From assembly GCA_023898465.1 (NCBI GenBank), contig CP060223.1:416001-480000 (forward strand): a stretch of DNA of 64,000 nt. The letters are read 5' to 3'. The notes beneath the pieces were generated by a model. The model saw only the letters and a list, made by a program, of their open reading frames with translations, was not told the DNA's origin and did not search any database. The stretch comes from Candidatus Nomurabacteria bacterium. Lineage in GTDB: Bacteria > Patescibacteriota > Patescibacteriia > HK-STAS-PATE-3. This document shows, in pieces, positions 20,837 to 44,320 of this stretch. Numbering within the stretch: the first letter of the stretch is position 1; every line of letters starts with the position of its first letter. Made by a program: the position numbers and the translations under genes.

Positions 20837-21661
20837 TTATCCTTTCGTGGTCAAATACTCTTGTAAGGCTGCTTCCCAATGCCGCAGAGCAGGGGCTTTG
20901 GTATTTTGCAGTATAGAAATTTTTGGACGTTTGGCTAAGCGAGGAAAATCATTTGTGGCTATTGCCTCAACCGGCACATCAAGTTTTTTATAGGCAAATA
21001 TTTTCTTTGCAAAATCAAACCAAGTAGTGCTTCCACTATTTACCAAATGATAAATCCCAAATGGCGCTTGTTCTCGAACTAAGCGATAAGCTGCATCAGC
21101 TAAATCTTTTGCATAAGTTGGACAACCATGCTGATCATTCACCACACGTAAAACCCTCTTTTCTCGTGCTGCAGTTAACATCATATCTACAAAATTCTTT
21201 CCATTTCTCCCATAGAGCCATGAGGTACGGATCAAATAAAATCGCGTTGTGGCTTCTTGTAATAAACTTTCACCTTGCAGCTTCGTTCTCCCATAAGCGT
21301 TTAATGGGTTGGGAGTTTCGGTCTCAGTATATCCTCCGTCTTTTTCTCCATCAAACACATAATCAGTCGAAAAATGCATCATGACTGCACCAATATCAGC
21401 ACAAGAAGTTGCTATATACCCTACCGCATCTCCATTCACTTTATTAGCAACATCTTCGTGATTTTCACACTCATCAACAGCGGTATAGGCAGCGGCATTT
21501 ACCACTAAATCGGGTTTTAGCTTTTTGAGTTTTTTCTTTACATCATCAGCATCACTAATATCCAGGTCTTCTTTATCCCATAAGGTGCAAGTTTCCGCGG
21601 CGAACGCTCGTTGCAGCTCAAAACCAAGCATACCTTTGGCGCCAAGTATTAAGACCTTCAT
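20837..21661 (-). CDS. rmlD: dTDP-4-dehydrorhamnose reductase
   Basis: 274 aa. MKVLILGAKGMLGFEL Rossmann start, then YxxxK region (YGRTKLQGE), and an RmlD-like C-terminus. Confidence 0.85.
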   Translation of the reverse strand: MKVLILGAKGMLGFELQRAFAAETCTLWDKEDLDISDADDVKKKLKKLKPDLVVNAAAYTAVDECENHEDVANKVNGDAVGYIATSCADIGAVMMHFSTDYVFDGEKDGGYTETETPNPLNAYGRTKLQGESLLQEATTRFYLIRTSWLYGRNGKNFVDMMLTAAREKRVLRVVNDQHGCPTYAKDLADAAYRLVREQAPFGIYHLVNSGSTTWFDFAKKIFAYKKLDVPVEAIATNDFPRLAKRPKISILQNTKAPALRHWEAALQEYLTTKG

Positions 21662-22677
21662 GCTGAGTCTCCTTTAGTATCTCCGTACTGCTTGGCGTAG
21701 TACTCTTGATATTCGCCTGATTTCAGTGGGCGCCACCAGGCTTCATTCTTTTTGTACCACTCTACTGTTTCTTGAATGCCGTCCTGAAAAGTATAGCTTG
21801 GCTTCCAGCCGAGATTTCTCAATTTTTCACTATTTAAGGCATAGCGCAGATCATGACCTGGACGATCTTTTACCCGCTCAATACTTTCCTCACCCTTTCC
21901 TAGCTGCTTCAATAACTCAGAGGTAAGTTCAAGATTTGTGATGCGCTCTCCGGAACCGATATTATATGATTGACCTAAGTCGCCTTTCCGTAATACTAAA
22001 TCTACCGCGCGAGAATGATCGCGTACAAAAAGCCATTCACGAACATTTTTCCCATCCCCATACAGCGGAACCTTTTTACCCTCAAGTAAATTGGTAATAA
22101 AAAGCGGAATCACTTTTTCGGGATAATGATGCCACCCATAATTATTTGTTGCGTGTGTGATAAGTACTGGCGTCTCGTAGGTATGCCAATACGCCATTAT
22201 AAGATGTTCGGCAGCGGCTTTTGAGGCTGAATACGGACTCGTAGGTCGGAAAGGATATTCTTCACTTGCTTCCCCCTCAGCCAGACTGCCAAAAACCTCA
22301 TCTGTTGATATATGCAAGAAACGGGAAACTTTTGATGCACGCATTGCTTCAAGTAGCACGTGTGTACCCATGACATCGGTGCGAAGGAAGGCCTCTGGAT
22401 CATGGATTGAACGATCCACATGTGTTTCTGCAGCATAATTTACTATCACGTCGGGCTGAAAGTCTTGTATTGCCTTCTTTACTGCAAGCGCATCACAAAT
22501 ATCAGCCTGTACAAAATGATAGCGTGAATTATCAGCTACACTCGCTAAATTAGCTAAATTGCCGGCGTATGTGAGTTTATCATAATTTAGCACCTCATCT
22601 TCTGGATGTTCTGACAGCACAAATCGGATAAAATCCGACCCCATAAAACCAGCCCCTCCGGTCACCAATATACGCAT
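21658..22677 (-). CDS. rmlB: dTDP-glucose 4,6-dehydratase
   Basis: 339 aa. MRILVTGGAGFMGSDF, an STDEV(F)G catalytic block and YSASKAA. It overlaps rmlD by 4 nt. Confidence 0.9.
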   Translation of the reverse strand: MRILVTGGAGFMGSDFIRFVLSEHPEDEVLNYDKLTYAGNLANLASVADNSRYHFVQADICDALAVKKAIQDFQPDVIVNYAAETHVDRSIHDPEAFLRTDVMGTHVLLEAMRASKVSRFLHISTDEVFGSLAEGEASEEYPFRPTSPYSASKAAAEHLIMAYWHTYETPVLITHATNNYGWHHYPEKVIPLFITNLLEGKKVPLYGDGKNVREWLFVRDHSRAVDLVLRKGDLGQSYNIGSGERITNLELTSELLKQLGKGEESIERVKDRPGHDLRYALNSEKLRNLGWKPSYTFQDGIQETVEWYKKNEAWWRPLKSGEYQEYYAKQYGDTKGDSA

Positions 22678-22801
22678 ATGTACTTAGATTAGCCTGATTT
22701 TAGGGTAATTGGCAAGACCTGTTTCGTTGACATTACTCAAGCGCTTTTGTAAGGTTTCAACCTCGAGGCCATGTGCACATACTTAGCCCAGGAGAACTGA
22801 A

Positions 22802-23092
22802 ATGCCTGATTGCAATCTCAACGTCCACGGCATCCGAGTACCTGACGAGCGCTGGCGGAAAATGAAAGCAGTTCATGATTCCTGCGAAACTGCAGGTGTC
22901 CAGCTGCCAGAAGAAGTCGAGATCTACTTCGATGGACATGAACCTGATCCGAGCGGAATACTCACTGACCTGGCTGACCCCATCGTCACCAAGTGGGAGC
23001 GCGAGGAAGACGACGATCAGGAAGGTATCGAGATCGACCTGACTCAGCTTCCAGAGGGCGTGACCAAGCTTCGCGTCACCATCAGCTACTAG
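22802..23092 (+). CDS. small acidic hypothetical protein (high-G+C island 1)
   Basis: 96 aa, very D/E-rich. An RBS caggaga lies 6 nt before the ATG. G+C and codon choice (GAC/GAG/CTG/GGC) are unlike the backbone. Confidence 0.4.
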   Translation: MPDCNLNVHGIRVPDERWRKMKAVHDSCETAGVQLPEEVEIYFDGHEPDPSGILTDLADPIVTKWEREEDDDQEGIEIDLTQLPEGVTKLRVTISY

Positions 23093-23122
23093 CACCCGCC
23101 CTCGACACAGAGTCATAGCTCA

Positions 23123-23485
23123 TCAAGCTATGGCTCTTTTTCTTGCTCCTAAAAAGATAAAGACTACTCCAATAGCCAGCGGTACTAGCATGTGCACGGG
23201 AATCTCACCTTCAGCAATGATGCCAATAATGAGACCCACAAACACTGCACCGGCGCTGAGATATCCGCCAAGTCGTTCATATTTCCAACCCAGGGCAAGA
23301 CCAATAAACATTATGGGAAAAACGCTAAGCCACGTGTTATCCCAAAGCGTATAACTCGAGTCAATAAAGGGTAAGGGATTTCCATAGCCAAAGTAGAATG
23401 GAAGTCCAAATGAAATGACTAAAAGGCTGAGAATGCGCATAGTCCAGCGCAGAGCTCTATACTGAGAAGAAGAAAAATGTCTCAT
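23123..23485 (-). CDS. 4-TM small membrane protein, unknown
   Basis: Backbone-like G+C. The start is taken at the Met of MRHFSS, because a -10-like TATACT (within palindrome AGTATACT 23492-23499) lies 6 nt upstream, so the transcript may be leaderless. Confidence 0.4.
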   Translation of the reverse strand: MRHFSSSQYRALRWTMRILSLLVISFGLPFYFGYGNPLPFIDSSYTLWDNTWLSVFPIMFIGLALGWKYERLGGYLSAGAVFVGLIIGIIAEGEIPVHMLVPLAIGVVFIFLGARKRAIA

Positions 23486-23603
23486 GTCTGTAGTATACTC
23501 CCGCCTTCCTTGTTTAAACAAACAAGGCTTGCTTGATTTGCAATATGTTGCTAAGGTCTTTTGTCTAGCTCATTTGCACATTCACTGAACAAGGAGCACA
23601 AAG

Positions 23604-23972
23604 GTGAAGTCCAGGCAAAAAACGGGTCCGATTTCAAGATATCTTGCTTGGTGCACTTCACGAGAGGCCACTGAGCAAGAACGCCGAGACAGGCTAAAGC
23701 AGCGTCTTTCAGGGGCAATCCCACGCGGTACCTGCCAGTGGCTGCGCGAAGAATGCGACATACCGATCGATGGACTCTTCAAGAAAGAAAGCATCACGGT
23801 CCTAATTACTAGAAGAGGTCCTGGAGCAAAAGCTCTTGGTCTCTCGCCTGAACTCAAAGGGACTGATGAGCAACTCAGAGCTCTCCAGGCTGCTTGGCGA
23901 GGCGCAATCACAGTTACCTGGCAATGGACTGAGGATCGAAGCACTCTGCGTATTAGCTTCAAGCGGGCTTAA
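23604..23972 (+). CDS. small basic hypothetical protein (high-G+C island 1)
   Basis: 122 aa with a GTG start. An RBS AAGGAG lies 7 nt upstream. Arg-rich, no motif recognised. It is followed by the hairpin/T-tract at 24003-24038. Confidence 0.35.
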   Translation: MKSRQKTGPISRYLAWCTSREATEQERRDRLKQRLSGAIPRGTCQWLREECDIPIDGLFKKESITVLITRRGPGAKALGLSPELKGTDEQLRALQAAWRGAITVTWQWTEDRSTLRISFKRA

Positions 23973-24002
23973 TCCTCAATACTCACCACAACAAAGACCT
24001 GT

Positions 24003-24038
24003 TCGACGTTTGTTCGCAGGTCTTTCCTTATTGACAAA
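24003..24038 (+). terminator. putative rho-independent terminator
   Basis: Perfect 8-bp stem aagacctg/caggtctt with a 15-nt loop, followed by TTTCCTT. Confidence 0.35.
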
Positions 24039-24039
24039 A

Positions 24040-24068
24040 ATGAGGTTTTGGACTATATTACCTCGTTC
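24040..24068 (+). promoter_or_regulatory. near-consensus sigma70 promoter: -35 TTGACA (24040-24045), 17-nt spacer, -10 TATATT (24063-24068)
   Basis: It is followed by AGGAGG (24101-24106) and a GTG/ATG start of the first gene of the paralogous pair. Confidence 0.45.
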
Positions 24069-24114
24069 TTTACATCCGTCTAGTACCGTGCAGGAGGGCG
24101 AACAAGTGCCAGTA

Positions 24115-24447
24115 AAAAAGATGGTGAAGATTATGAACCACGTTGAAATCCTGAAAAACACTCCGCTCCTTCGGGAGTTCCGCTTGGCAACTGCTGAGGA
24201 TATCGCGCCAGGAGCAGAGCTGTTCGAGGCTGAGGTGGGCTTTGATCTCAGAATTGAACAACCACGTCGGATCCGTCTGGCCGACGAACCGATACAAGAA
24301 GCTTACGGAGAAGATCATGTGGTCTACTCCCAGGCCAATGGCCTGAAGGACCTTACGGTCACCGTACAACGCTTCCTGTCCACCGAAGCAGAACCTGAGA
24401 CCCTCTTCCCACACCGCTACACAATCCTCTACCTCGTCAAGATCTAG
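24115..24447 (+). CDS. hypothetical protein, paralog 1 of a tandem pair (island 1)
   Basis: About 110 aa. Start is GTG 24115 (RBS AGGAGG 8 nt upstream) or ATG 24130. It shares ILxxxPxLxxxRLxTxxDxxPGAxL at the N-terminus and EAExxxxxxTxLYLxK at the C-terminus with the next ORF. The long 5' extension in the ORF track lies upstream of the promoter and is rejected. Confidence 0.5.
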   Translation, partial: KKMVKIMNHVEILKNTPLLREFRLATAEDIAPGAELFEAEVGFDLRIEQPRRIRLADEPIQEAYGEDHVVYSQANGLKDLTVTVQRFLSTEAEPETLFPHRYTILYLVKI

Positions 24448-24477
24448 CGCTCACAGGGCTTCCACCAAGGAGGATTC

Positions 24478-24801
24478 ATGTCCACGATGATCAACCGTCA
24501 AGATATCCTGAACCGGGCACCGGATCTTCCGGGTCGCCGCTTGGTCACCCGAGACGAAGTGATCCCGGGCGCGAAGCTCGATATGGTTCATGTTGACCTG
24601 GACGGCAAGGCTCAGTGGCTTCAGCCGATCCAGATCGACGAAGAAGCCACCGGTGAGCGGGTAGGCACGACCTACGTGTTCTACCACTGCGACGGTCATC
24701 CCAGTCAGTGCTTCGTCCCCTTCGATGATTTCGTTGGTGTCGAGGTGGAAGCAGAGAGCTGCGGACCCTTCCTCACCACCCTCTACCTCGCGAAAAACTG
24801 A
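24478..24801 (+). CDS. hypothetical protein, paralog 2 of a tandem pair (island 1)
   Basis: 107 aa with a perfect AGGAGG 5 nt before the ATG. Conserved blocks are shared with the upstream ORF (MINRQDILNRAPDLPGRRLVTRDEVIPGAKL / ...TTLYLAKN). Confidence 0.55.
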   Translation: MSTMINRQDILNRAPDLPGRRLVTRDEVIPGAKLDMVHVDLDGKAQWLQPIQIDEEATGERVGTTYVFYHCDGHPSQCFVPFDDFVGVEVEAESCGPFLTTLYLAKN

Positions 24802-24860
24802 CCCCCCTCAAAGCCGCCAATATCACTTCATGTGTGAGGCGGCTTTTTCATTAAACAAAC

Positions 24861-24892
24861 GACAGGGCACAGAGGCCCTGTCTATCTGTTTT
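24861..24892. terminator. bidirectional rho-independent terminator between convergent paralog-2 and ahcY
   Basis: Perfect 8-bp stem gacagggc/gccctgtc with loop acagag, then TATCTGTTTT on the + strand and GTTTGTTT on the - strand. A second, weaker hairpin (aagccgcc/ggcggctt + TTTTT) lies at 24812-24848. Confidence 0.5.
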
Positions 24893-24959
24893 ACAAAGTT
24901 ATGCAAATTTAGATTACTGCTTCCGGTCGTAGTGCAGCTTCATTGCTACTCATAACTTC

Positions 24960-27175
<2,216 letters not shown>

Positions 27176-40396: not shown

Positions 40397-40414
40397 GCGC
40401 GTTTGGGAGGATGC

Positions 40415-40960
40415 ATGAAAACGCTCAGTTTTTTGCTGATGTTGCTTAGCTTTGGCTTGGCAACACCGAGCTTGGCACAGCTCACGCTGCGCCATGGGAC
40501 ACTCATGCCAGGTAATGGTATGAGTGAATCAGCGCAATACCGTCTGGTGAGCGTCATCGGATGGGCTGACCTTAGCCAACATGCCGATACTACTTGGGTA
40601 CTGATCGAAGGGCCGTGGATTCCTCGGAACCATGACACCTCGGCAGTGGGAGGACCTGAAACTCAGGCACACCGCCTAAGCCTCTCGAACATTCAACCCA
40701 ATCCGATTGGTCAATCCGGTCTGATTCACTTCAATGTCCCTGGGATCAATGGAGAGAAATCGCCCCTTACCATGGCAATCTATGACGTCACCGGGCGTCG
40801 AGTACGCACACTGGTCTCAGGCGAGATGCAATCCGGTCCACAGGTTGCTATCTGGGATGGACGAGACGACAGTGGAAAGGCGCTGGCGAATGGCATCTAT
40901 TGGTGCCAAATTCAGTGCAAAAACAACAGGGCAACCAAAAAGCTGGCGGTTATCCGCTAA
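40415..40960 (+). CDS. secreted small protein consisting of signal peptide, short linker and a T9SS-type/FlgD-Ig-like C-terminal sorting domain (island 2)
   Basis: A signal peptide MKTLSFLLMLLSFGLATPSLA. The C-terminal about 90 aa (LSNIQPNPIGQSGLIHFNVPG...LTMAIYDVTGRRVRTLVSGEMQSGPQVAIWDGRDDSGKALANGIYWCQIQCKNNRATKKLAVIR) follows the por-secretion CTD / FlgD_ig pattern (NPF..T.I.F.L......V.L.IYD..GR.VRTL......G.H...WDG.D..G..V.SGVY.Y.L..G....TKKM.L.K). High G+C. Confidence 0.6.
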   Translation: MKTLSFLLMLLSFGLATPSLAQLTLRHGTLMPGNGMSESAQYRLVSVIGWADLSQHADTTWVLIEGPWIPRNHDTSAVGGPETQAHRLSLSNIQPNPIGQSGLIHFNVPGINGEKSPLTMAIYDVTGRRVRTLVSGEMQSGPQVAIWDGRDDSGKALANGIYWCQIQCKNNRATKKLAVIR

Positions 40961-40978
40961 GTAGAAGGAGATGAGATC

Positions 40979-42502
40979 ATGTTGAAGTTCCAGAGTCTCT
41001 GTATTTTGGTGGCGCTTTGTTGTGCCACGCTCGTCTTTGCTTCTGTGCCAAACCTGCTCACCTACCAGGGCTACTTGGAAGATGGTGGACAGGCAGCCAA
41101 CGGCAGCTACAACGTCACCTTCCTGCTCTACGATCAGGCAAGTGGCGGTACCAGCCTCTGGGAAGAAGTACAAACCGGTCTCGCGGTCCAGGACGGACTC
41201 ATGCAGTCATACCTCGGCCGGATCACGCCGCTTCCCAGCAACCTCGATGAGATCGAAACCCTCTATCTCAGCGTCGTTGTGCAGGGTGACACTCTGCAAT
41301 CACGCACCGAGCTCGCTTCTGTCCCCTACGCCTTCCGCGCCAAGCTATCTGAACACGCAGTCTATGCTGATTCGGCCGGAAATGGCGGAGATAGTGGTAG
41401 TGGATTCTGGGCAGCGAACGGCAACGATATCCATAACACCAATTCTGGGTTTGTGGGGATCGGGACGGAGAATCCAAACGAGCCCCTACATGTTGAAGGA
41501 CAAGGCATAGATTGGGCTGCCAGATTCACAAACAGTGATGGAAGCAGCAGCTCAGACGTGCGCTTGGCCTACAGAACTGGCGCTGGCATCTACATGAACA
41601 CCACTGGAACTACTAGTGGGTACTTCATGAACTTGAAGCATGAAGATCTCACAAAGGTCTATCTCACGAAGTCAGGCTACCTTGGGCTTGGTACGGATGG
41701 TCCAATTTCACAGCTCCACGTGGTGAACCCGGTCAACGCGGGGGCTGGAAACATCTTCAACATCGACCGAACGAACGACGTCACAAAGCAAACCTACATG
41801 GGCTTCCGTACGCACACGCTGCAGGACGCCTTCATAGGTGTGCCGGCAAACACGACCAACACGCTCACCTTTGGGTATGCCGGAAGCGCCGAGCTTATGC
41901 GTTACAACGCAAACGGGCTCGGTATTCGCACCACCAATCCGCAATTCACACTCGATGTGAACGGGAATACCAATTCAAGTCAGTACTACCTGGCCGGGCA
42001 CCAGATCGCCTACACTACTGGCGGCGGATCTCTCTTTCGTCTCAAGGACCCAAGCGGTGCAGACCGTGTTGAGTTCCAGGGGAACGGAGGCGATCTGCTC
42101 TTGGTGGGACCTGTCCGTATCAACGGCGACCTCTGCGTCACTGGTCAGAAAAACCGTATTGTGGAAACACCTTACGGCACTCTGGCTTTGAATGCTGAGG
42201 AATCGGCCGAAGCTTGGTTCTCTGCCAGCGGCGAAAGTCAGCTGGAAAACGGCCGAGCCCAAGTCGAGCTGTCTGAACGCTTCCTCGCGACCGTGGTCGT
42301 TTCTGATGAGCATCCTATGCAAGTCAACGCGACCTTCTATGGAGCGCACGGCGGCGGATGGTACGTGGAGCGTGGGCTGAACAGCTTCACTCTCGTCGAC
42401 CCCAGCGGGAGTAATGCACCGTTCACTTGGACGGTCAAAGCTCGCCAAAAAGGTTACGAAGACGTGAATCTCCGCGTTGTCGCGCCAACAGATGGGAGGT
42501 GA
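40979..42502 (+). CDS. secreted tail-fibre-like repeat protein (peptidase S74 / endosialidase-chaperone-type GIGT...LHV repeats) (island 2)
   Basis: A signal peptide is present. The N-terminal LTYQGYLEDGGQAANGSYNVTFLLYD..SGGTSLWEE block matches a phage-fibre-like motif. Three repeats of the G-[FYL]-[VLG]-G-[IL]-[GR]-T-x-x-P-x-x-x-L-[HD]-V motif occur (NSGFVGIGTENPNEPLHV; SGYLGLGTDGPISQLHV; NGLGIRTTNPQFTLDV). Confidence 0.55.
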   Translation: MLKFQSLCILVALCCATLVFASVPNLLTYQGYLEDGGQAANGSYNVTFLLYDQASGGTSLWEEVQTGLAVQDGLMQSYLGRITPLPSNLDEIETLYLSVVVQGDTLQSRTELASVPYAFRAKLSEHAVYADSAGNGGDSGSGFWAANGNDIHNTNSGFVGIGTENPNEPLHVEGQGIDWAARFTNSDGSSSSDVRLAYRTGAGIYMNTTGTTSGYFMNLKHEDLTKVYLTKSGYLGLGTDGPISQLHVVNPVNAGAGNIFNIDRTNDVTKQTYMGFRTHTLQDAFIGVPANTTNTLTFGYAGSAELMRYNANGLGIRTTNPQFTLDVNGNTNSSQYYLAGHQIAYTTGGGSLFRLKDPSGADRVEFQGNGGDLLLVGPVRINGDLCVTGQKNRIVETPYGTLALNAEESAEAWFSASGESQLENGRAQVELSERFLATVVVSDEHPMQVNATFYGAHGGGWYVERGLNSFTLVDPSGSNAPFTWTVKARQKGYEDVNLRVVAPTDGR

Positions 42503-42505
42503 GGG

Positions 42506-44284
42506 ATGAGATGGATTCTCTCGGTCCTACTCCTGGCTCTTGCGAGTAGTGCCTTTGCCGTACAACCAAATCTTCAGCTTCCCTTTGCTGAAGGGACCGT
42601 TCACAAATGTACGCAAGGTGCCAATGGCGAGTACTCACATCAGTACACTTCAACACGTTACGACATCGATCTAGACACGATCAACAATGGCGATGAAACG
42701 TTGTACGCCCCAGTATCCGGAACCGTCTATCTGCATGATGAAGGTGAATCCGGATTCGGAAAACACGTAAACATCGACGTTGGAGACAACACTTTTGTTC
42801 TCCTTGGGCATTGCAAGAGCTTTCTTGTTTCTGATGGACAGCAGATAACAACAGGGATGCCTGTTGCGCTTGAAGGCTGTACAGGAAATTGTTACGGTGA
42901 TCATGTACACTTTGGTCTGCACACTGGAAACCCTCAGATAGGCGCTTCAAGTAGCACATCAATTGTTGCCGAACACATCTGGGCTAGGGATGTGACCGCG
43001 GGTGGAGAATTTCGATTCTTCCGAAGCGATGAATTCATAGGCGATTTGACTAGTGGCCACAACTACGAGACTGGCTATTTAGGCACACCCTACCTCTGTT
43101 CTCCTGCTGGTCAAGATCCACCCGCTGCCCCGCCATTCTGGACCAAGCCTGGCGACATCAAATCATACTTGGCGAGATTCAGAAATACGGGAACGGCAAC
43201 GTGGATTGATAGCGGAGGCGTTGGTACGAATAACTACGTTGAACTACGATCGGTGTTTCAGAACGGCACACCCAAAAACTGTTGGCTTGAGCCAGTAGAT
43301 TGGATTGGGTGCCCTGCATCCTGCAACACTCAACGAGTAACCTCGTTTGACGAAGGGACAGTCGCTCCTGGTCAAACTGCAACATTCACCTTCCAGGCAC
43401 GAACACCAAATGTTCCAACTGACCTTGACGGTGAAGTAGTGTACTTCCGCCCCTTCCACGGAGCAGACATCGGAATCGACGGATGGGGGGAGATGAACTT
43501 CCTTATCTATGTCGACGCCGACGCGCCGCAGGTCCCGCCGAACTTGAGCGTGAACCCGTCAGACTGCACGAGCACCAACTCGTTCTTCTTTGACTGGGAT
43601 GCTTCGAGCGACGTGGGTAGTGGACTGGATCTCTACGAGTGGCAAATCAACGGATCTACACCGAACTCCACGACTAGTACTTCGGTACAAGTGAATGGGA
43701 GTCAAAGCGTTCACCCGGGCACCAACGTCTTCTACGTCAGAGCCTTGGATAAGGTCGGAAACGTGAGTGGAATGGCCACGGTGGAATTCTGCTTCGAAAC
43801 CGACTGCAACCTCAGCTTCAACCGAGACGACGACGGCAATAGTGTGCCTGACGGATGGACGGCTGACCCTCATGGAGGTTCAAGCTATAGCTGGCCGCCT
43901 GGAGGCATTGGAAGCAACTCACACTACGTACGTATTGTGAACGCTGATGGAGATGATTGGATGATCTATACTCGCACCAACTGCGATCAGATCACGCCAG
44001 GACAACTCTACCGAATCGGCTTCTGGTACAACACCACCTCCACGGCTCCGTTCGAGTGGGCACTGTTCAAGAGTAGTGTTTCAACTGGTCAACGAAGTCT
44101 GAACGCCCTCGTGAGCAACCCAACCGCAGACGGGCAGTGGCATCAATTCCAAAGTGAACCCTTCACAATCAACTCCGGCGACCTCAGCACCTACCCGAAA
44201 TTCGGGGTAAAGGTACCGCCGGGATCTGTCGGAACCTTCAACTTCGACGAGGTCTTCTTCGTTGAAACTGAGCTGTGTCAATAG
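42506..44284 (+). CDS. secreted M23-family metallopeptidase with Fn3/Ig-like and CBM-like (jelly-roll) C-terminal domains (island 2)
   Basis: A signal peptide MRWILSVLLLALASSAFA. M23/LytM motifs are H-x3-D (HQYTSTRYDID) and HxH (GDHVHFGLH) around LYAPVSGTV / VALEGCTGNCYGDHVHFGLH. An Fn3-like block follows (PNLSVNPSDCTSTNSFFFDWDASSD...YEWQINGS...VFYVRALDKVGNVSG), and the C-terminal about 170 aa has a CBM4/9-like pattern. Confidence 0.6.
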   Translation: MRWILSVLLLALASSAFAVQPNLQLPFAEGTVHKCTQGANGEYSHQYTSTRYDIDLDTINNGDETLYAPVSGTVYLHDEGESGFGKHVNIDVGDNTFVLLGHCKSFLVSDGQQITTGMPVALEGCTGNCYGDHVHFGLHTGNPQIGASSSTSIVAEHIWARDVTAGGEFRFFRSDEFIGDLTSGHNYETGYLGTPYLCSPAGQDPPAAPPFWTKPGDIKSYLARFRNTGTATWIDSGGVGTNNYVELRSVFQNGTPKNCWLEPVDWIGCPASCNTQRVTSFDEGTVAPGQTATFTFQARTPNVPTDLDGEVVYFRPFHGADIGIDGWGEMNFLIYVDADAPQVPPNLSVNPSDCTSTNSFFFDWDASSDVGSGLDLYEWQINGSTPNSTTSTSVQVNGSQSVHPGTNVFYVRALDKVGNVSGMATVEFCFETDCNLSFNRDDDGNSVPDGWTADPHGGSSYSWPPGGIGSNSHYVRIVNADGDDWMIYTRTNCDQITPGQLYRIGFWYNTTSTAPFEWALFKSSVSTGQRSLNALVSNPTADGQWHQFQSEPFTINSGDLSTYPKFGVKVPPGSVGTFNFDEVFFVETELCQ

Positions 44285-44320
44285 CTTGGAGGGGCTATTC
44301 CAGCATACATCGCACTTTCA

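What the first reader, a model, noticed from the sequence alone, without database searches (positions are those of the whole stretch)
22700..24900. Second high-G+C islet encoding small unknown proteins, including a tandem paralogous pair with its own consensus promoter
About 57% G+C in a hand-counted sample, versus about 40% for the backbone. It contains an acidic 96-aa protein, a basic 122-aa protein (GTG start with RBS), and two about 110-aa paralogs. The paralogs share N-terminal I-L-x3-P-x-L-x3-R-L-x-T-x2-D-x2-P-G-A-x-L and C-terminal E-A-E-x6-T-x-L-Y-L-x-K blocks. They are driven by a textbook TTGACA-N17-TATATT promoter and strong AGGAGG sites. The pair sits between an 8-bp-stem terminator upstream and a perfect bidirectional terminator downstream. 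A backbone-like 4-TM gene lies between the acidic gene and the rest. No family could be assigned by eye. The organisation (small, strongly expressed, paralogous, foreign composition) is typical of accessory toxin-immunity, anti-defence or regulatory modules.
Basis: partly seen in the sequence, partly recalled or inferred. Interest (0 to 1): 0.65.

Follow-up and report, generated by a model that had tools for sequence, protein, structure and literature searches.

The report
Foreign small-gene cassettes in a Nomurabacteria genome
Two GC-rich pieces of foreign DNA sit inside a sugar-nucleotide/AdoHcy gene string of a tiny CPR bacterium; they carry a gene otherwise seen in large phages and two copies of a very rare, fast-evolving small beta-barrel protein that brings its own promoter and terminator, and none of their functions is known.

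Summary
A (96 aa), C1 and C2 have GC3 of 0.61-0.71 against 0.37 +/- 0.04 for host genes. The whole interval is 50.7% G+C, not 57%, and the backbone is 43%. C1 and C2 are true paralogs (30% identity, z = 18). The promoter and hairpin terminators are present. The basic ORF B has no support beyond its RBS.

The host is a Candidatus Nomurabacteria MAG. A distant syntenic relative has one NUDIX gene where the islet sits.

A belongs to an uncatalogued family found in 8 IMG/VR viral contigs, which include Bacillus phage Shbh1 and a 485-kb jumbo phage.

C1 and C2 belong to a rare family: 34 clusters among 1.84 billion proteins, with no Pfam, PHROG, PADLOC or PDB match. The AF2 model (pLDDT 93.6) is an SH3/Tudor-like barrel. 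Elsewhere the gene is usually single and more GC-rich than its host DNA. It is preceded by a near-consensus TTGACA promoter, often plus a leader box, and followed by a G+C-rich hairpin. It is hyperdivergent between close genomes (43.5% versus 90-94% for flanking proteins).

My reading is autonomous, moron-like accessory cassettes that encode binding proteins, possibly conflict-related. A toxin-immunity pair is not supported. Function remains untested.

The parts
22727..22755 (+). Weak sigma70-like promoter candidate for gene A (TTGACA-N17-TAAGGT, 9/12), ending 46 nt before the ATG
   Evidence: A 9/12 match occurs in about 20% of random 180-nt windows, so this is weak evidence.
22802..23092 (+). 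Gene A: acidic 96-aa protein (pI 4.31; NCBI H6760_02125 / USN53944.1). It belongs to an uncatalogued family found in large phages.
   Evidence: GC 0.546 and GC3 0.619 (z = 6.7 against host genes). tblastn hits to Bacillus phage Shbh1 gp43 and to the 485-kb uncultured phage LR745208 (E about 1e-7, 94-96% coverage). Eight IMG/VR contigs at 30-44% identity. In phages its GC matches the phage's own GC. No Pfam or PHROG family.
23109..23137 (+). 12-bp-stem hairpin plus T run: terminator of A. It overlaps the 3' end of the convergent TM gene.
   Evidence: -17.8 kcal/mol, z = -5.0.
23123..23485 (-). 4-TM membrane protein of family DUF7670. It has host-like composition, lies on the same strand as the flanking host operon, and is probably native.
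   Evidence: PF24709, E = 1.7e-12, 48.1 bits against a cut-off of 29. GC 0.436, GC3 0.39. The ATG at 23485 is the start used by the gene call in L001.
23604..23972 (+). ORF B: basic 122-aa ORF (GTG start, AAGGAG 7 nt upstream). Its status as a gene is doubtful.
   Evidence: No homologue in any search. Not in the protein collection and not annotated by NCBI or in L001. Its frame scores best of the six on the codon log-likelihood, but weakly (0.09 against 0.19-0.23 for real genes). GC1/2/3 of 0.57/0.54/0.46 is atypical for a coding sequence.
23993..24025 (+). Hairpin (10-bp outer stem with a small inner stem) followed by a weak T tract. It insulates the C1-C2 unit on the upstream side.
   Evidence: -14.3 kcal/mol, z = -3.3. 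It lies inside the over-long 193-aa NCBI gene call H6760_02135.
24031..24059 (+). Near-consensus sigma70 promoter of the C1-C2 unit (TTGACA-N17-TATATT)
   Evidence: 11/12. The same perfect -35 and near-consensus -10, ending 36-63 nt before the start codon, occur upstream of family members in 7 other loci: L086 12/12; L099b, L100 and L101 11/12; L085 10/12; L083 and L102 9/12. Random windows reach 11/12 or better in 2.7% of cases.
24063..24074 (+). Degenerate copy (TCGTTCTTTACA) of the leader box GTCGATTTCAA(C) that follows the -10 hexamer in other family loci
   Evidence: The box is 9-10 of 11 conserved in L083, L085, L102 and L100 at the same offset. The window copy is weak.
24092..24097 (+). 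AGGAGG Shine-Dalgarno sequence, 8 nt before the GTG of C1
   Evidence: Read directly from the sequence.
24106..24447 (+). Gene C1: 113-aa (GTG start) divergent member of the small beta-barrel family. It lacks the family's Cys71/Cys78 pair.
   Evidence: Family HMM E = 4e-30. 30% identical to C2 and 35-38% to other members. GC3 0.605. The start is inferred from the SD spacing and from the family's length of 98-141 aa.
24467..24473 (+). AAGGAGG Shine-Dalgarno sequence, 4 nt before the ATG of C2
   Evidence: Read directly from the sequence.
24478..24801 (+). Gene C2: 107-aa typical family member (H6760_02140 / USN53947.1), predicted SH3/Tudor-like beta-barrel
24810..24846 (+). Terminator hairpin of the C1-C2 unit (AAAGCCGCC...GGCGGCTTT, followed by TT)
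   Evidence: -18.5 kcal/mol, z = -4.9.
24861..24882 (.). 8-bp-stem palindromic hairpin with T-rich tails on both strands. It would act as a bidirectional terminator between the cassette and the convergent ahcY gene.
   Evidence: Found on both strands; -16.2 kcal/mol, z = -4.0.

Best explanation
The interval is a mosaic of horizontally acquired accessory transcription units. They are inserted on the opposite strand into a conserved host gene string (rfbC-adoK-ahcY-[x]-rfbB-rfbD) of a Candidatus Nomurabacteria (CPR) genome, on either side of a native DUF7670 membrane-protein gene.

Unit 1 is gene A. It is a small, very acidic protein from a gene family whose other known homes are large phages.

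Unit 2 is the C1-C2 pair. These are two anciently diverged members of a rare family of about 105-aa cytoplasmic SH3/Tudor-like beta-barrel proteins. Across unrelated genomes this family travels, or is kept, as a self-contained cassette. The cassette comprises an upstream insulating hairpin (seen in the window, L100 and L101), a near-consensus TTGACA-N16/17-TATAxT promoter, a short leader that usually begins with a GTCGATTTCAA-like box, a strong Shine-Dalgarno site, the ORF, and a G+C-rich hairpin terminator.

It therefore works like a phage 'moron'. It is expressed constitutively and independently of the operon it interrupts, and terminators on both sides keep it from interfering with host transcription.

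The proteins have no catalytic signature. I infer that they act by binding a partner macromolecule. Because the ORF diverges faster than its own intergenic flanks between close relatives, I infer that the partner is itself fast-evolving: a phage, competitor or host-cell component. That would place the family in the accessory or conflict class.

Shown: composition, paralogy, family membership, fold class, regulatory signals, synteny, phage affiliation of A, hyperdivergence.

Inferred: horizontal origin, constitutive expression, a binding function, a conflict role.

ORF B is probably not a functional gene, or is at best a lineage-specific orphan.
For: Composition: GC3 is 0.62 (A), 0.61 (C1) and 0.71 (C2) against 0.374 +/- 0.037 for host ORFs. 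The TM gene is host-like.

Assembly is real: an independent Logan assembly (L001, 99.2% identical over 15.8 kb) has the same arrangement.

Host identity: NCBI names for A, C1 and C2 come from a 1.08-Mb Candidatus Nomurabacteria contig.

Insertion site: the syntenic relative L003 has rfbC-adoK-ahcY-NUDIX-rfbB-rfbD all on one strand, with 548 nt where the window has 2282 nt.

Gene A: homologues occur in phage Shbh1 (in a run of small, mostly hypothetical genes), in a 485-kb phage and in six further IMG/VR contigs. In those contigs A's GC is close to that of the surrounding phage DNA in most cases.

C family:
- It has 34 clusters in 1.84e9 proteins, nearly all stand-alone and 98-141 aa long.
- The AF2 model is confident.
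- The gene's GC exceeds the GC of the surrounding DNA in all 11 other loci examined.
- One copy lies between two IS transposases (L086).
- Promoters are conserved, as are the leader box and the downstream hairpins. Several hairpins share CCCCGCATCGA arms.
- L100 and L101 share the arrangement fusA-[C]-uvrB. EF-G is 93.9% and UvrB 90.1% identical, but C is 43.5% identical. At the nucleotide level the C ORF is 63% identical, against 83-85% for the flanking genes and about 70% for the intergenic DNA.
- C2 carries the densest cluster of strain differences (17 in 130 nt). About half are synonymous (my count from the alignment), which suggests an imported allele.

Genomic islands and horizontal transfer are already documented as common in Patescibacteria (PMC12455944).
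Against: - No mobility gene, tRNA or convincing target-site duplication marks the islet. The 10-nt repeat TTAAACAAAC at 23514 and 24851 is at chance level.
- No close relative lacking the islet was available. L003 is distant (42-66% protein identity).
- The C family was not found in any phage, plasmid or IMG/VR record, so its vehicle is unknown.
- The gene holds the same site in L100 and L101. This argues for vertical persistence in at least one lineage. Its persistently high GC3 could therefore be an intrinsic, selected property rather than a trace of recent transfer.
- Expression, binding and any phenotype are untested.
- The window's own promoter match is not significant by itself, and its leader box and terminator are the least typical of the set.
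Confidence: 0.5

Rival explanations
1. Toxin-immunity or toxin-antitoxin module. One of B, C1 or C2 would be a toxin and a neighbour would neutralise it.
For: The genes are small and adjacent, share a promoter and have foreign composition. One is basic and two are acidic.
Against: C1 and C2 are homologues of each other. The family is a single gene in 10 of the 12 loci recovered, with unrelated neighbours. B has no homologue and no gene call. There is no hit in PADLOC, Pfam, NCBIfam or PHROGs for any member.
Confidence: 0.06
2. Phage-derived anti-defence or host-takeover genes left in the chromosome. A would be an acidic mimic-type inhibitor. C1 and C2 would be small barrel proteins that bind a host machine such as RNA polymerase or repair helicases, in the way the CarD, Mfd and UvrD Tudor-like domains do.
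Against: The fold matches are weak and generic for SH3-like barrels. hhalign against a CarD sequence recalled from memory gives 0.09% probability. No C-family member was found in any phage collection. The association with uvr genes was noticed after the fact, and L100 and L101 are one lineage. A matches no known anti-restriction family, and its structure could not be modelled (pLDDT 48.7).
Confidence: 0.2
3. Native, lineage-specific small proteins of CPR bacteria. Their high GC3 and strong promoters would reflect selection, for example for expression or mRNA stability, or GC-biased gene conversion, rather than foreign origin.
For: The gene's position is conserved between L100 and L101. GC3 stays at 0.60-0.78 in hosts whose GC3 ranges from 0.33 to 0.62, although the proteins are only 30-48% identical. 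A recombination tract lies inside C2. All longer contigs look like small-genome bacteria with housekeeping neighbours.
Against: No host gene in the window, including conserved housekeeping genes, exceeds GC3 0.47. The distribution is extremely patchy, with 34 clusters in 1.84e9 proteins. One copy lies between IS elements. The flanking genes differ in almost every locus. A, which shares the composition, is demonstrably from the phage gene pool.
Confidence: 0.2
4. Assembly or binning artefact: a chimeric contig that joins DNA from a GC-richer organism.
For: The composition changes abruptly in a metagenome-assembled genome.
Against: An independent assembly from another sequencing run (L001, SRR12358676) has the identical arrangement with both host flanks. 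A native-composition gene sits in the middle of the islet. The same family is embedded in host-composition DNA in several other assemblies.
Confidence: 0.02

Closest known systems
Phage 'morons' (autonomous promoter-ORF-terminator units of deviant composition, inserted between conserved genes; a concept from lambdoid phage genomics, cited from my own knowledge)
   Same: Each unit has its own promoter, its own intrinsic terminator and a base composition unlike its flanks. It sits between genes that are adjacent or nearly so in a relative, and it encodes a small accessory protein.
   Different: The units are not inside a recognisable prophage. The flanks are chromosomal housekeeping genes of a CPR bacterium. 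The C-family cassette was not found in any phage record. The cassette's promoter, leader box and terminator arms recur between unrelated genomes, which is not part of the moron definition.
Genomic islands and individually transferred genes of Patescibacteria (PMC12455944)
   Same: Compositionally deviant, lineage-specific DNA in a streamlined CPR genome, with mostly hypothetical cargo.
   Different: It is very small (about 0.3 kb plus 1.3 kb), carries no integrase or other mobility gene, and interrupts an operon-like string in antisense orientation.
Tudor-like / SH3-like RNA-polymerase-interacting domains (CarD_CdnL_TRCF, PF02559; UvrD C-terminal Tudor domain)
   Different: There is no sequence or profile similarity. 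C2 has extra strands and two short helices, 107 aa in all, of which about 60 align. The family-specific motifs (Y/F)RLxTxxDxxPGAEL, YV(F/Y)YHC..QCFVP and GPYxTTLYL are absent from those families.
DUF1653 (small SH3-like proteins of bacteria and phages)
   Different: No member hits the DUF1653 Pfam model, and the similarity is below any reliable threshold.
Bacillus phage Shbh1 gp43 and relatives (unnamed family of gene A)
   Same: 33-44% identity (tblastn) over the whole length, with shared motifs WKKMK, AC(E/K)AAG, YFDGEEPD, (I/V)D(L/M)xKLPxGV and a C-terminal SY.
   Different: The window copy lies in a bacterial chromosome with no phage genes nearby. The family has no Pfam or PHROG model and no known function.

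Membership tests
Toxin-antitoxin / toxin-immunity pair | Two non-homologous partner genes | tested here: not met
   C1 and C2 are homologous (z = 18).
Toxin-antitoxin / toxin-immunity pair | The pairing is conserved wherever the family occurs | tested here: not met
   The family is a single gene in 10 of 12 loci, and neighbours share no similarity.
Toxin-antitoxin / toxin-immunity pair | Similarity to a known toxin, antitoxin, immunity or defence protein | tested here: not met
   No hit in PADLOC, Pfam, NCBIfam or PHROGs for the window proteins or, in PADLOC, Pfam and PHROGs, for all 32 family members.
Toxin-antitoxin / toxin-immunity pair | Toxicity that the partner neutralises | not testable with these tools
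   This needs expression experiments.
Phage moron | Own promoter | tested here: met
   An 11/12 consensus match at 24031-24059, which recurs in 7 other family loci. This is sequence evidence only.
Phage moron | Own factor-independent terminator | tested here: met
   Hairpins with T runs at 24810-24846 and 24861-24882, and at 23109-23137 for A. Family genes in 10 other loci tested also have a downstream hairpin, 8 of them clearly more stable than shuffles (z <= -3).
Phage moron | Composition different from the flanks | tested here: met
   GC3 z-scores of 6.3-9.3.
Phage moron | Located within a (pro)phage genome between conserved phage genes | tested here: not met
   The flanks are rfbB and ahcY, and no phage gene occurs in the neighbourhood. 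So it works like a moron but is not one in the strict sense.
Horizontally acquired genomic islet | Absent from the same site in a relative | tested here: met
   L003 has only a NUDIX gene between ahcY and rfbB. The relative is distant, so this is suggestive rather than decisive.
Horizontally acquired genomic islet | Mobility genes, a tRNA target or flanking direct repeats | tested here: not met
   There is no tRNA in the window and no integrase or transposase ORF in the interval. Only chance-level 10-nt repeats are present.
CarD_CdnL_TRCF / Tudor-like RNA-polymerase-interacting domain | Five-stranded Tudor/SH3-like barrel | tested here: inconclusive
CarD_CdnL_TRCF / Tudor-like RNA-polymerase-interacting domain | Sequence or profile match to the family | tested here: not met
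   No Pfam hit for any of the 32 members. hhalign probability 0.09% against a CarD sequence recalled from memory.
CarD_CdnL_TRCF / Tudor-like RNA-polymerase-interacting domain | Binding to the RNA polymerase beta subunit | not testable with these tools
   This needs a biochemical assay or complex prediction.
DUF7670 (the TM gene) | Pfam model match above the gathering score | tested here: met
   48.1 bits against a cut-off of 29, E = 1.7e-12, covering 107 of the 118 model positions.
Anti-restriction DNA mimics (Ocr/ArdA-type), considered for gene A | Strongly acidic small protein of phage origin | tested here: met
   pI 4.31 with 23 Asp+Glu in 96 residues. The family occurs in phages.
Anti-restriction DNA mimics (Ocr/ArdA-type), considered for gene A | Homology or fold similarity to Ocr, ArdA or other known mimics | tested here: not met
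   No Pfam, PHROG or PDB sequence hit. The fold could not be modelled (pLDDT 48.7).
Integron gene cassette | A promoterless ORF followed by an attC site (about 57 bp or more, with GTTRRRY core sites), in an array next to intI | tested here: not met
   The cassettes have their own promoter. The 3' hairpins are 20-40 nt, and I saw no GTTRRRY cores by eye. There is no intI or cassette array in any locus.

The most novel reading that the evidence does not exclude
The C1/C2 family may be a previously undescribed class of mobile, self-expressing mini-cassette, possibly specific to CPR/Patescibacteria. Each cassette would comprise a conserved consensus promoter, a GTCGATTTCAA leader box, a GC3-rich ORF and a CCCCCG-type hairpin. 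It encodes a hypervariable SH3/Tudor-like binder that takes part in a genetic conflict, for example against phages or in the episymbiont-host interaction. The conserved ends might double as the sequences through which the cassette is exchanged by recombination. That would explain three things at once: the hyperdivergence at a fixed site (L100 versus L101), the imported allele tract in C2, and the constant GC3 across hosts.
Probability: 0.25. Interest if true: 0.7.

Novelty: new variant of a known kind. Interest (0 to 1): 0.42.

Why it matters
CPR/Patescibacteria genomes are tiny and full of unannotated small proteins. Knowing which of these are horizontally exchanged accessory genes bears on how these episymbionts deal with phages and host cells.

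This analysis defines two uncatalogued protein families. One is shared with large phages. The other is a rare beta-barrel family that appears to carry its own conserved expression signals and evolves much faster than its surroundings.

If the cassette idea holds, it gives a simple sequence signature (promoter, box, ORF, hairpin) for mining a new class of accessory genes in uncultivated bacteria. If it does not hold, the locus is an ordinary small island of ORFans. Either way, the finding also corrects a database annotation: H6760_02135 is over-extended by about 80 codons across a terminator and a promoter.

Tried and rejected
- BLASTP of C1 against C2 gave no alignment. This was a seeding failure, because Smith-Waterman with shuffles gave z = 18.
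- The word-indexed homologue search found only the sister-strain allele for C2, nothing for C1, and nothing for a concatenated A+B query. The exhaustive HMM search was needed to find the C family.
- The large Ig-like and Calx-beta repeat proteins among the weak HMM hits (P0024, P0025) are spurious beta-strand matches.
- The genome-contig scan with AhcY did not find close relatives (best 66% identity). It was useful only for the syntenic locus L003.
The metagenome scan added one locus (L086).
- tblastn of C2, P0004 and P0017 against phages, and of C2 against plasmids, found nothing. B against phages also found nothing.
- A degenerate promoter-plus-box pattern in IMG/VR gave at least 120 chance hits, none next to a C or A gene.
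- Single-sequence AF2 of A was unusable (pLDDT 48.7). The afdb50 fold library was unavailable.
- No remnant of an A- or C-type gene is hidden in the B region.
- There are no Rfam families and no tRNAs in the window.
- Leader RNAs do not fold better than shuffles. The pairing of the 5' box with the I-D-R codons is probably a trivial consequence of TCGA palindromes.
- Conserved Cys71/Cys78 (16 and 23 of 32 members) are not universal, so an essential metal or catalytic site is unlikely.
- I rejected the integron-cassette, DGR-target and assembly-chimera readings. The reasons for the integron and chimera readings are under membership tests and rivals. The DGR reading was rejected because, by my count from the alignment, the C2 substitutions are a mix of synonymous and non-synonymous changes and are not adenine-specific.

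Full report
**1. What is in the interval**

Reading the sequence and listing ORFs gives the following order, starting from the 5' end of rfbB (21658-22677, minus strand):
- A, 22802-23092 (+), 96 aa.
- A hairpin with a T run at 23109-23137.
- A membrane-protein gene, 23123-23485/23521 (-).
- B, 23604-23972 (+), GTG start, 122 aa.
- A hairpin at 23993-24025.
- TTGACA-N17-TATATT at 24031-24059.
- AGGAGG at 24092-24097.
- C1, 24106-24447 (+).
- AAGGAGG at 24467-24473.
- C2, 24478-24801 (+).
- A hairpin at 24810-24846.
- A palindromic hairpin at 24861-24882.
- The 3' end of ahcY (24960-26216, minus strand).

The isoelectric points are 4.31 (A), 10.27 (B), 5.38 (C1) and 4.61 (C2). The promoter and the terminator-like sites were recovered by the consensus scan. 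All four hairpins fold better than dinucleotide shuffles, with z from -3.3 to -5.0.

**2. Composition**

Per gene the values are A 54.6%, TM 43.6%, B 52.6%, C1 52.6% and C2 58.3%.

Third-position G+C shows the contrast best. A is 0.619, C1 0.605 and C2 0.713. The 46 host ORFs of at least 150 aa average 0.374 +/- 0.037 with a maximum of 0.47. None of 129 host chunks of 110 codons exceeds 0.49.

The TM gene is host-like (0.39) and B is intermediate (0.463). The 'islet' is therefore two deviant segments on either side of a native-looking gene. The only comparable region in the window is 40.4-44.3 kb.

**3. Paralogy**

C1 and C2 align over their full length, with one 1-residue gap near the C terminus, at 30% identity. 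The Smith-Waterman score is 105 against 25.1 +/- 4.4 for shuffles, z = 18. No other pair among A, TM, B, C1 and C2 is related.

**4. Host and reality of the arrangement**

Exact look-up shows that A, a 193-aa version of C1, and C2 are annotated as hypothetical proteins H6760_02125, H6760_02135 and H6760_02140 on a 1.08-Mb contig of a Candidatus Nomurabacteria MAG.

An independently assembled 20.5-kb contig from SRR12358676 (L001) is collinear and 99.17% identical over 15.8 kb, and it contains the same genes. This excludes a chimeric assembly.

The 193-aa gene call spans the hairpin, the promoter and the SD site. All other family members are 98-141 aa, so the call is over-extended. I place the C1 start at the GTG at 24106, 8 nt after AGGAGG.

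**5. Insertion site**

Among the loci fetched with AhcY, L003 has the order rfbC-adoK-ahcY-NUDIX-rfbB-rfbD, all on one strand and tightly packed. Protein identities to the window are 29%, 42%, 66%, 56% and 51%.

The window has the same string on its minus strand. Between ahcY and rfbB, however, it has 2282 nt in place of the 548 nt that hold L003's NUDIX gene. In the window the deviant genes lie on the opposite strand.

This is the best available evidence that the site is variable and that the GC-rich genes are additions. The relative is distant, so the evidence is suggestive only. No tRNA, integrase or convincing direct repeat marks the borders.

**6. Gene A**

Pfam, PHROGs, NCBIfam and PADLOC give nothing significant.

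tblastn against GenBank phages finds full-length matches in two phages (E about 1e-7). One is Bacillus phage Shbh1 gp43. There the gene lies in a run of small, mostly hypothetical genes, about 3.7 kb upstream of an ocr-domain gene. The other is the 485-kb uncultured phage LR745208.

A pattern scan of IMG/VR confirmed eight viral contigs at 30-44% identity, including those two phages. They share the motifs WKKMK, AC(E/K)AAG, YFDGEEPD, (I/V)D(L/M)xKLPxGV and a C-terminal SY. No neighbour is conserved among these phage loci.

In most of these phage contigs the gene's G+C is close to that of the surrounding phage DNA, for example 0.53 against 0.56, 0.52 against 0.53, and 0.60 against 0.605. In the Nomurabacteria genome it is 0.546 against 0.434. 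The simplest reading is that A was acquired from a phage of about 53-56% G+C.

The family is in neither Pfam nor PHROGs. Its fold could not be modelled from the single sequence (pLDDT 48.7).

**7. ORF B**

B has a good SD site. However, it has no homologue in the protein collection, in phages or in any fetched locus, and no gene caller called it.

Its frame is the best of the six on a host-codon log-likelihood, but only weakly: 0.09 per codon against 0.19-0.23 for A, TM, C1, rfbB and ahcY (C2 itself scores only 0.08 on the host-codon table). Its GC1/2/3 pattern is atypical. No degraded A- or C-type gene is hidden there. I treat B as unproven.

**8. The C1/C2 family**

*Size and sequence.* An exhaustive HMM search of 1.84 billion representative proteins found 34 proteins at E <= 1e-3 and 14 at E <= 1e-10. 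Nearly all are stand-alone proteins of 98-141 aa. The three long proteins are Ig-like or Calx-beta repeat proteins, or carry no Pfam domain, and I set them aside as spurious.

The alignment shows these blocks:
- (Y/F)RLxTxxD(I/L)xPGAEL(F/Y)M
- IxLD(D/E)EP
- YV(F/Y)Y(H/R)C ... QCFVP..xF
- GPYxTTLYL

Arg21 is present in 30 of 32 members, Asp27 in 29 of 32 and Val67 in 30 of 32. Cys78 (23 of 32) and Cys71 (16 of 32, always together with Cys78) are common but not universal, and C1 lacks both. No member matches Pfam, PHROGs, PADLOC or any PDB sequence.

Foldseek against PDB and BFVD finds nothing significant. A profile comparison with a CarD sequence recalled from memory is null. The fold class is thus an SH3/Tudor-like barrel with extensions, and membership in any named family fails.

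**9. Genomic contexts of the C family**

Twelve loci were recovered; L084 is too short to show any context.
- The neighbours differ almost everywhere: folD and TM proteins; a DUF4442 gene; unknown proteins of 190 and 195 aa; a uvrD-like fragment; two IS transposases in L086; fusA and uvrB in L100 and L101. Pairwise tests find no conserved partner.
- Two paralogs occur together only in the window (and its sister strain L001) and in L099. There, P0013 and P0027 are 38% identical and are separated by one gene.
- In an NJ tree C1 and C2 are not sisters. C2 is 46-49% identical to members from other genomes. The tandem pair is therefore not a recent local duplication.
- In all 11 other loci examined, the gene's G+C exceeds that of the surrounding DNA. 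Examples are 0.60 against 0.42 in L102, 0.59 against 0.45 in L086, 0.63 against 0.48 in L002, and 0.51 and 0.56 against 0.40 in L099. GC3 is 0.60-0.78 in five members outside the window.

**10. The gene carries its own signals**

*Promoter.* Upstream of the first family gene in each locus there is a perfect TTGACA. A near-consensus -10 hexamer follows, ending 36-63 nt before the start codon. The scores are window 11/12; L099b, L100 and L101 11/12; L086 12/12; L085 10/12; L083 and L102 9/12. Random 180-nt windows from the same loci reach 11/12 or better in 2.7% of cases. The window's promoter is not significant alone, but it is credible as one of this set.

*Leader box.* Five to six nucleotides after the -10 hexamer, most loci share a box:
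- L083: GTCGATTTAAC
- L085: ATCGATTTCAA
- L102: GTCGATTCCAA
- L100: GTCGTTTTCAC
- L101: GCCGTTTTCCC
- window: TCGTTCTTTACA, only a weak match

*Terminator.* Every locus with enough downstream sequence has a G+C-rich hairpin after the ORF, in most followed by a T run. Nine of the eleven hairpins after C genes (window C2 included) are clearly more stable than shuffles (z <= -3). Several have nearly the same arms:
- L102: GCCCCCGCATCGA..TCGATGCGGGGGC
- L086: CACCCCGCATCGA..TCGATCGCGGGGGTG
- L002: GCCCCCGTATCGA..GATCGGTACGGGGGC
- CCCCCG/CGGGGG arms also occur in L083, L099a, L100, L101 and L085.

L100 and L101 also have a terminator hairpin just upstream of the promoter, as the window does. The unit of conservation is thus hairpin-promoter-leader-SD-ORF-hairpin.

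**11. Hypervariability**

L100 and L101 are close relatives. EF-G is 93.9% identical, UvrB 90.1% and the DUF218 protein 71%. Both have the arrangement fusA-[C]-uvrB, yet the two C proteins are only 43.5% identical.

At the nucleotide level fusA is 84.8% identical, uvrB 82.9%, DUF218 74.1% and the two intergenic spacers about 70%. The C ORF is 63.2% identical, against a shuffle baseline of 58.9%.

Between the window and L001, 17 of 129 differences fall within 130 nt of C2 (24613-24742). By my count from the alignment they are a roughly equal mix of synonymous and non-synonymous changes. That looks like a tract imported from a diverged allele. Either the ORF evolves faster than its own spacers, or alleles are swapped by recombination in the conserved ends.

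**12. Interpretation**

The data fit small horizontally acquired accessory units that work like phage morons. Each has its own promoter, its own terminators and a deviant composition, and is inserted between host genes without depending on host transcription.

A links the locus to the phage gene pool. The vehicle of the C family is unknown: it is absent from the phage, plasmid and IMG/VR searches.

A toxin-immunity pair is not supported, because the partners are homologous, the family usually occurs singly, and there are no hits to defence or toxin-antitoxin models.

The most probable molecular role of C1 and C2 is non-enzymatic binding to a macromolecular partner. The hypervariability suggests a conflict-type partner. 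The weak resemblance to RNA-polymerase-binding Tudor-like domains, and the neighbouring uvrB and uvrD-type genes in four loci, are leads only.

The alternative is that these are native CPR genes whose high GC3 is maintained by selection or biased gene conversion. That reading is not excluded. The fixed site in L100 and L101 favours it, while the extreme patchiness, the IS-flanked copy and the ever-changing neighbours speak against it.

Horizontal transfer and genomic islands are already known to be frequent in Patescibacteria (PMC12455944). The islet as such is therefore ordinary. What is new is the definition of two uncatalogued families and the cassette-like, hypervariable behaviour of one of them.

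**13. Verdict**

- Observation: partly confirmed.
- Novelty: a new variant of a known kind.
- Interest: moderate (0.42). The function is unknown and nothing has been tested experimentally. The cassette signature is specific enough to be followed up computationally.

Noticed in passing
window 40400-44300: A larger high-G+C region (52-58%; GC3 0.55-0.63). It encodes apparently secreted proteins: a 185-aa protein with a sorting-domain-like C terminus, a 507-aa protein, and a 592-aa protein that, by eye, has an M23-peptidase-like N-terminal part. It is probably another horizontally acquired block.
   Followed up: no
window 23866-24447 (NCBI H6760_02135, 193 aa; the same call appears in L001 9380-9961): The database gene model for C1 is over-extended by about 80 codons. 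The extension runs across the 3' end of ORF B, a terminator hairpin, the consensus promoter and the SD site. All other family members are 98-141 aa.
   Followed up: yes
window 24613-24742 (within C2) compared with L001 10127-10256: 17 of the 129 differences between two 99.2%-identical strains fall within 130 nt of C2. By my count 7-8 are synonymous and 7 non-synonymous. This looks like a recombination tract from a diverged allele. A, B and C1 are identical between the two strains.
   Followed up: partly
L100 2007-2345 and L101 5088-5402: Two closely related genomes (EF-G 94% and UvrB 90% identical) carry a family member at the same site between fusA and uvrB. The proteins are only 43.5% identical, and the ORF is more diverged than the flanking intergenic DNA.
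   Followed up: partly
Upstream and downstream of family genes in L083, L085, L086, L099, L100, L101, L102 and L002: The non-coding ends are conserved: a perfect TTGACA -35, a GTCGATTTCAA-like box 5-6 nt after the -10 hexamer, and downstream hairpins with shared CCCCG(CATCGA) arms. The 5' box can pair with the ATCGAT codons of the conserved I-D-R motif, but the leaders do not fold better than shuffles.
   Followed up: partly
L086 11-1009 (-) and 1973-2791 (+): The family member P0005 lies between a DDE (rve-type) transposase and an IS1595-like transposase. These identifications are by eye and were not confirmed by a family search. This is the only locus with mobility genes next to the family.
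   Followed up: no
L099 10001-10330 and 11450-11779: A second genome has two diverged paralogs of the family (38% identical). They are separated by a DKNYY-family gene, and both are GC-rich (0.51 and 0.56) in a 40% G+C contig. A LexA-like repressor gene lies 5-6 kb away.
   Followed up: partly
window 23999-24013: The hairpin upstream of the C1 promoter contains GTTC-N7-GTTC (GTTCGACGTTTGTTC). From memory, this has the form of an alphaproteobacterial LexA box. It may well be coincidental.
   Followed up: no
L003 11236-11802: In the distant syntenic relative, a 188-aa gene that looks NUDIX-like by eye occupies the ahcY-rfbB junction. It overlaps both neighbours on the same strand. The record is labelled 'uncultured Gammaproteobacteria', which may be a binning mislabel given its synteny with a CPR genome.
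   Followed up: no
L091 6001-6285: The closest viral homologue of gene A (44% identity, on a 106-kb IMG/VR contig) carries an in-frame stop after codon 73. This is either a pseudogene or a sequencing error. An HNH/AP2-type endonuclease and an asparagine synthase lie just upstream (both identified by eye).
   Followed up: no
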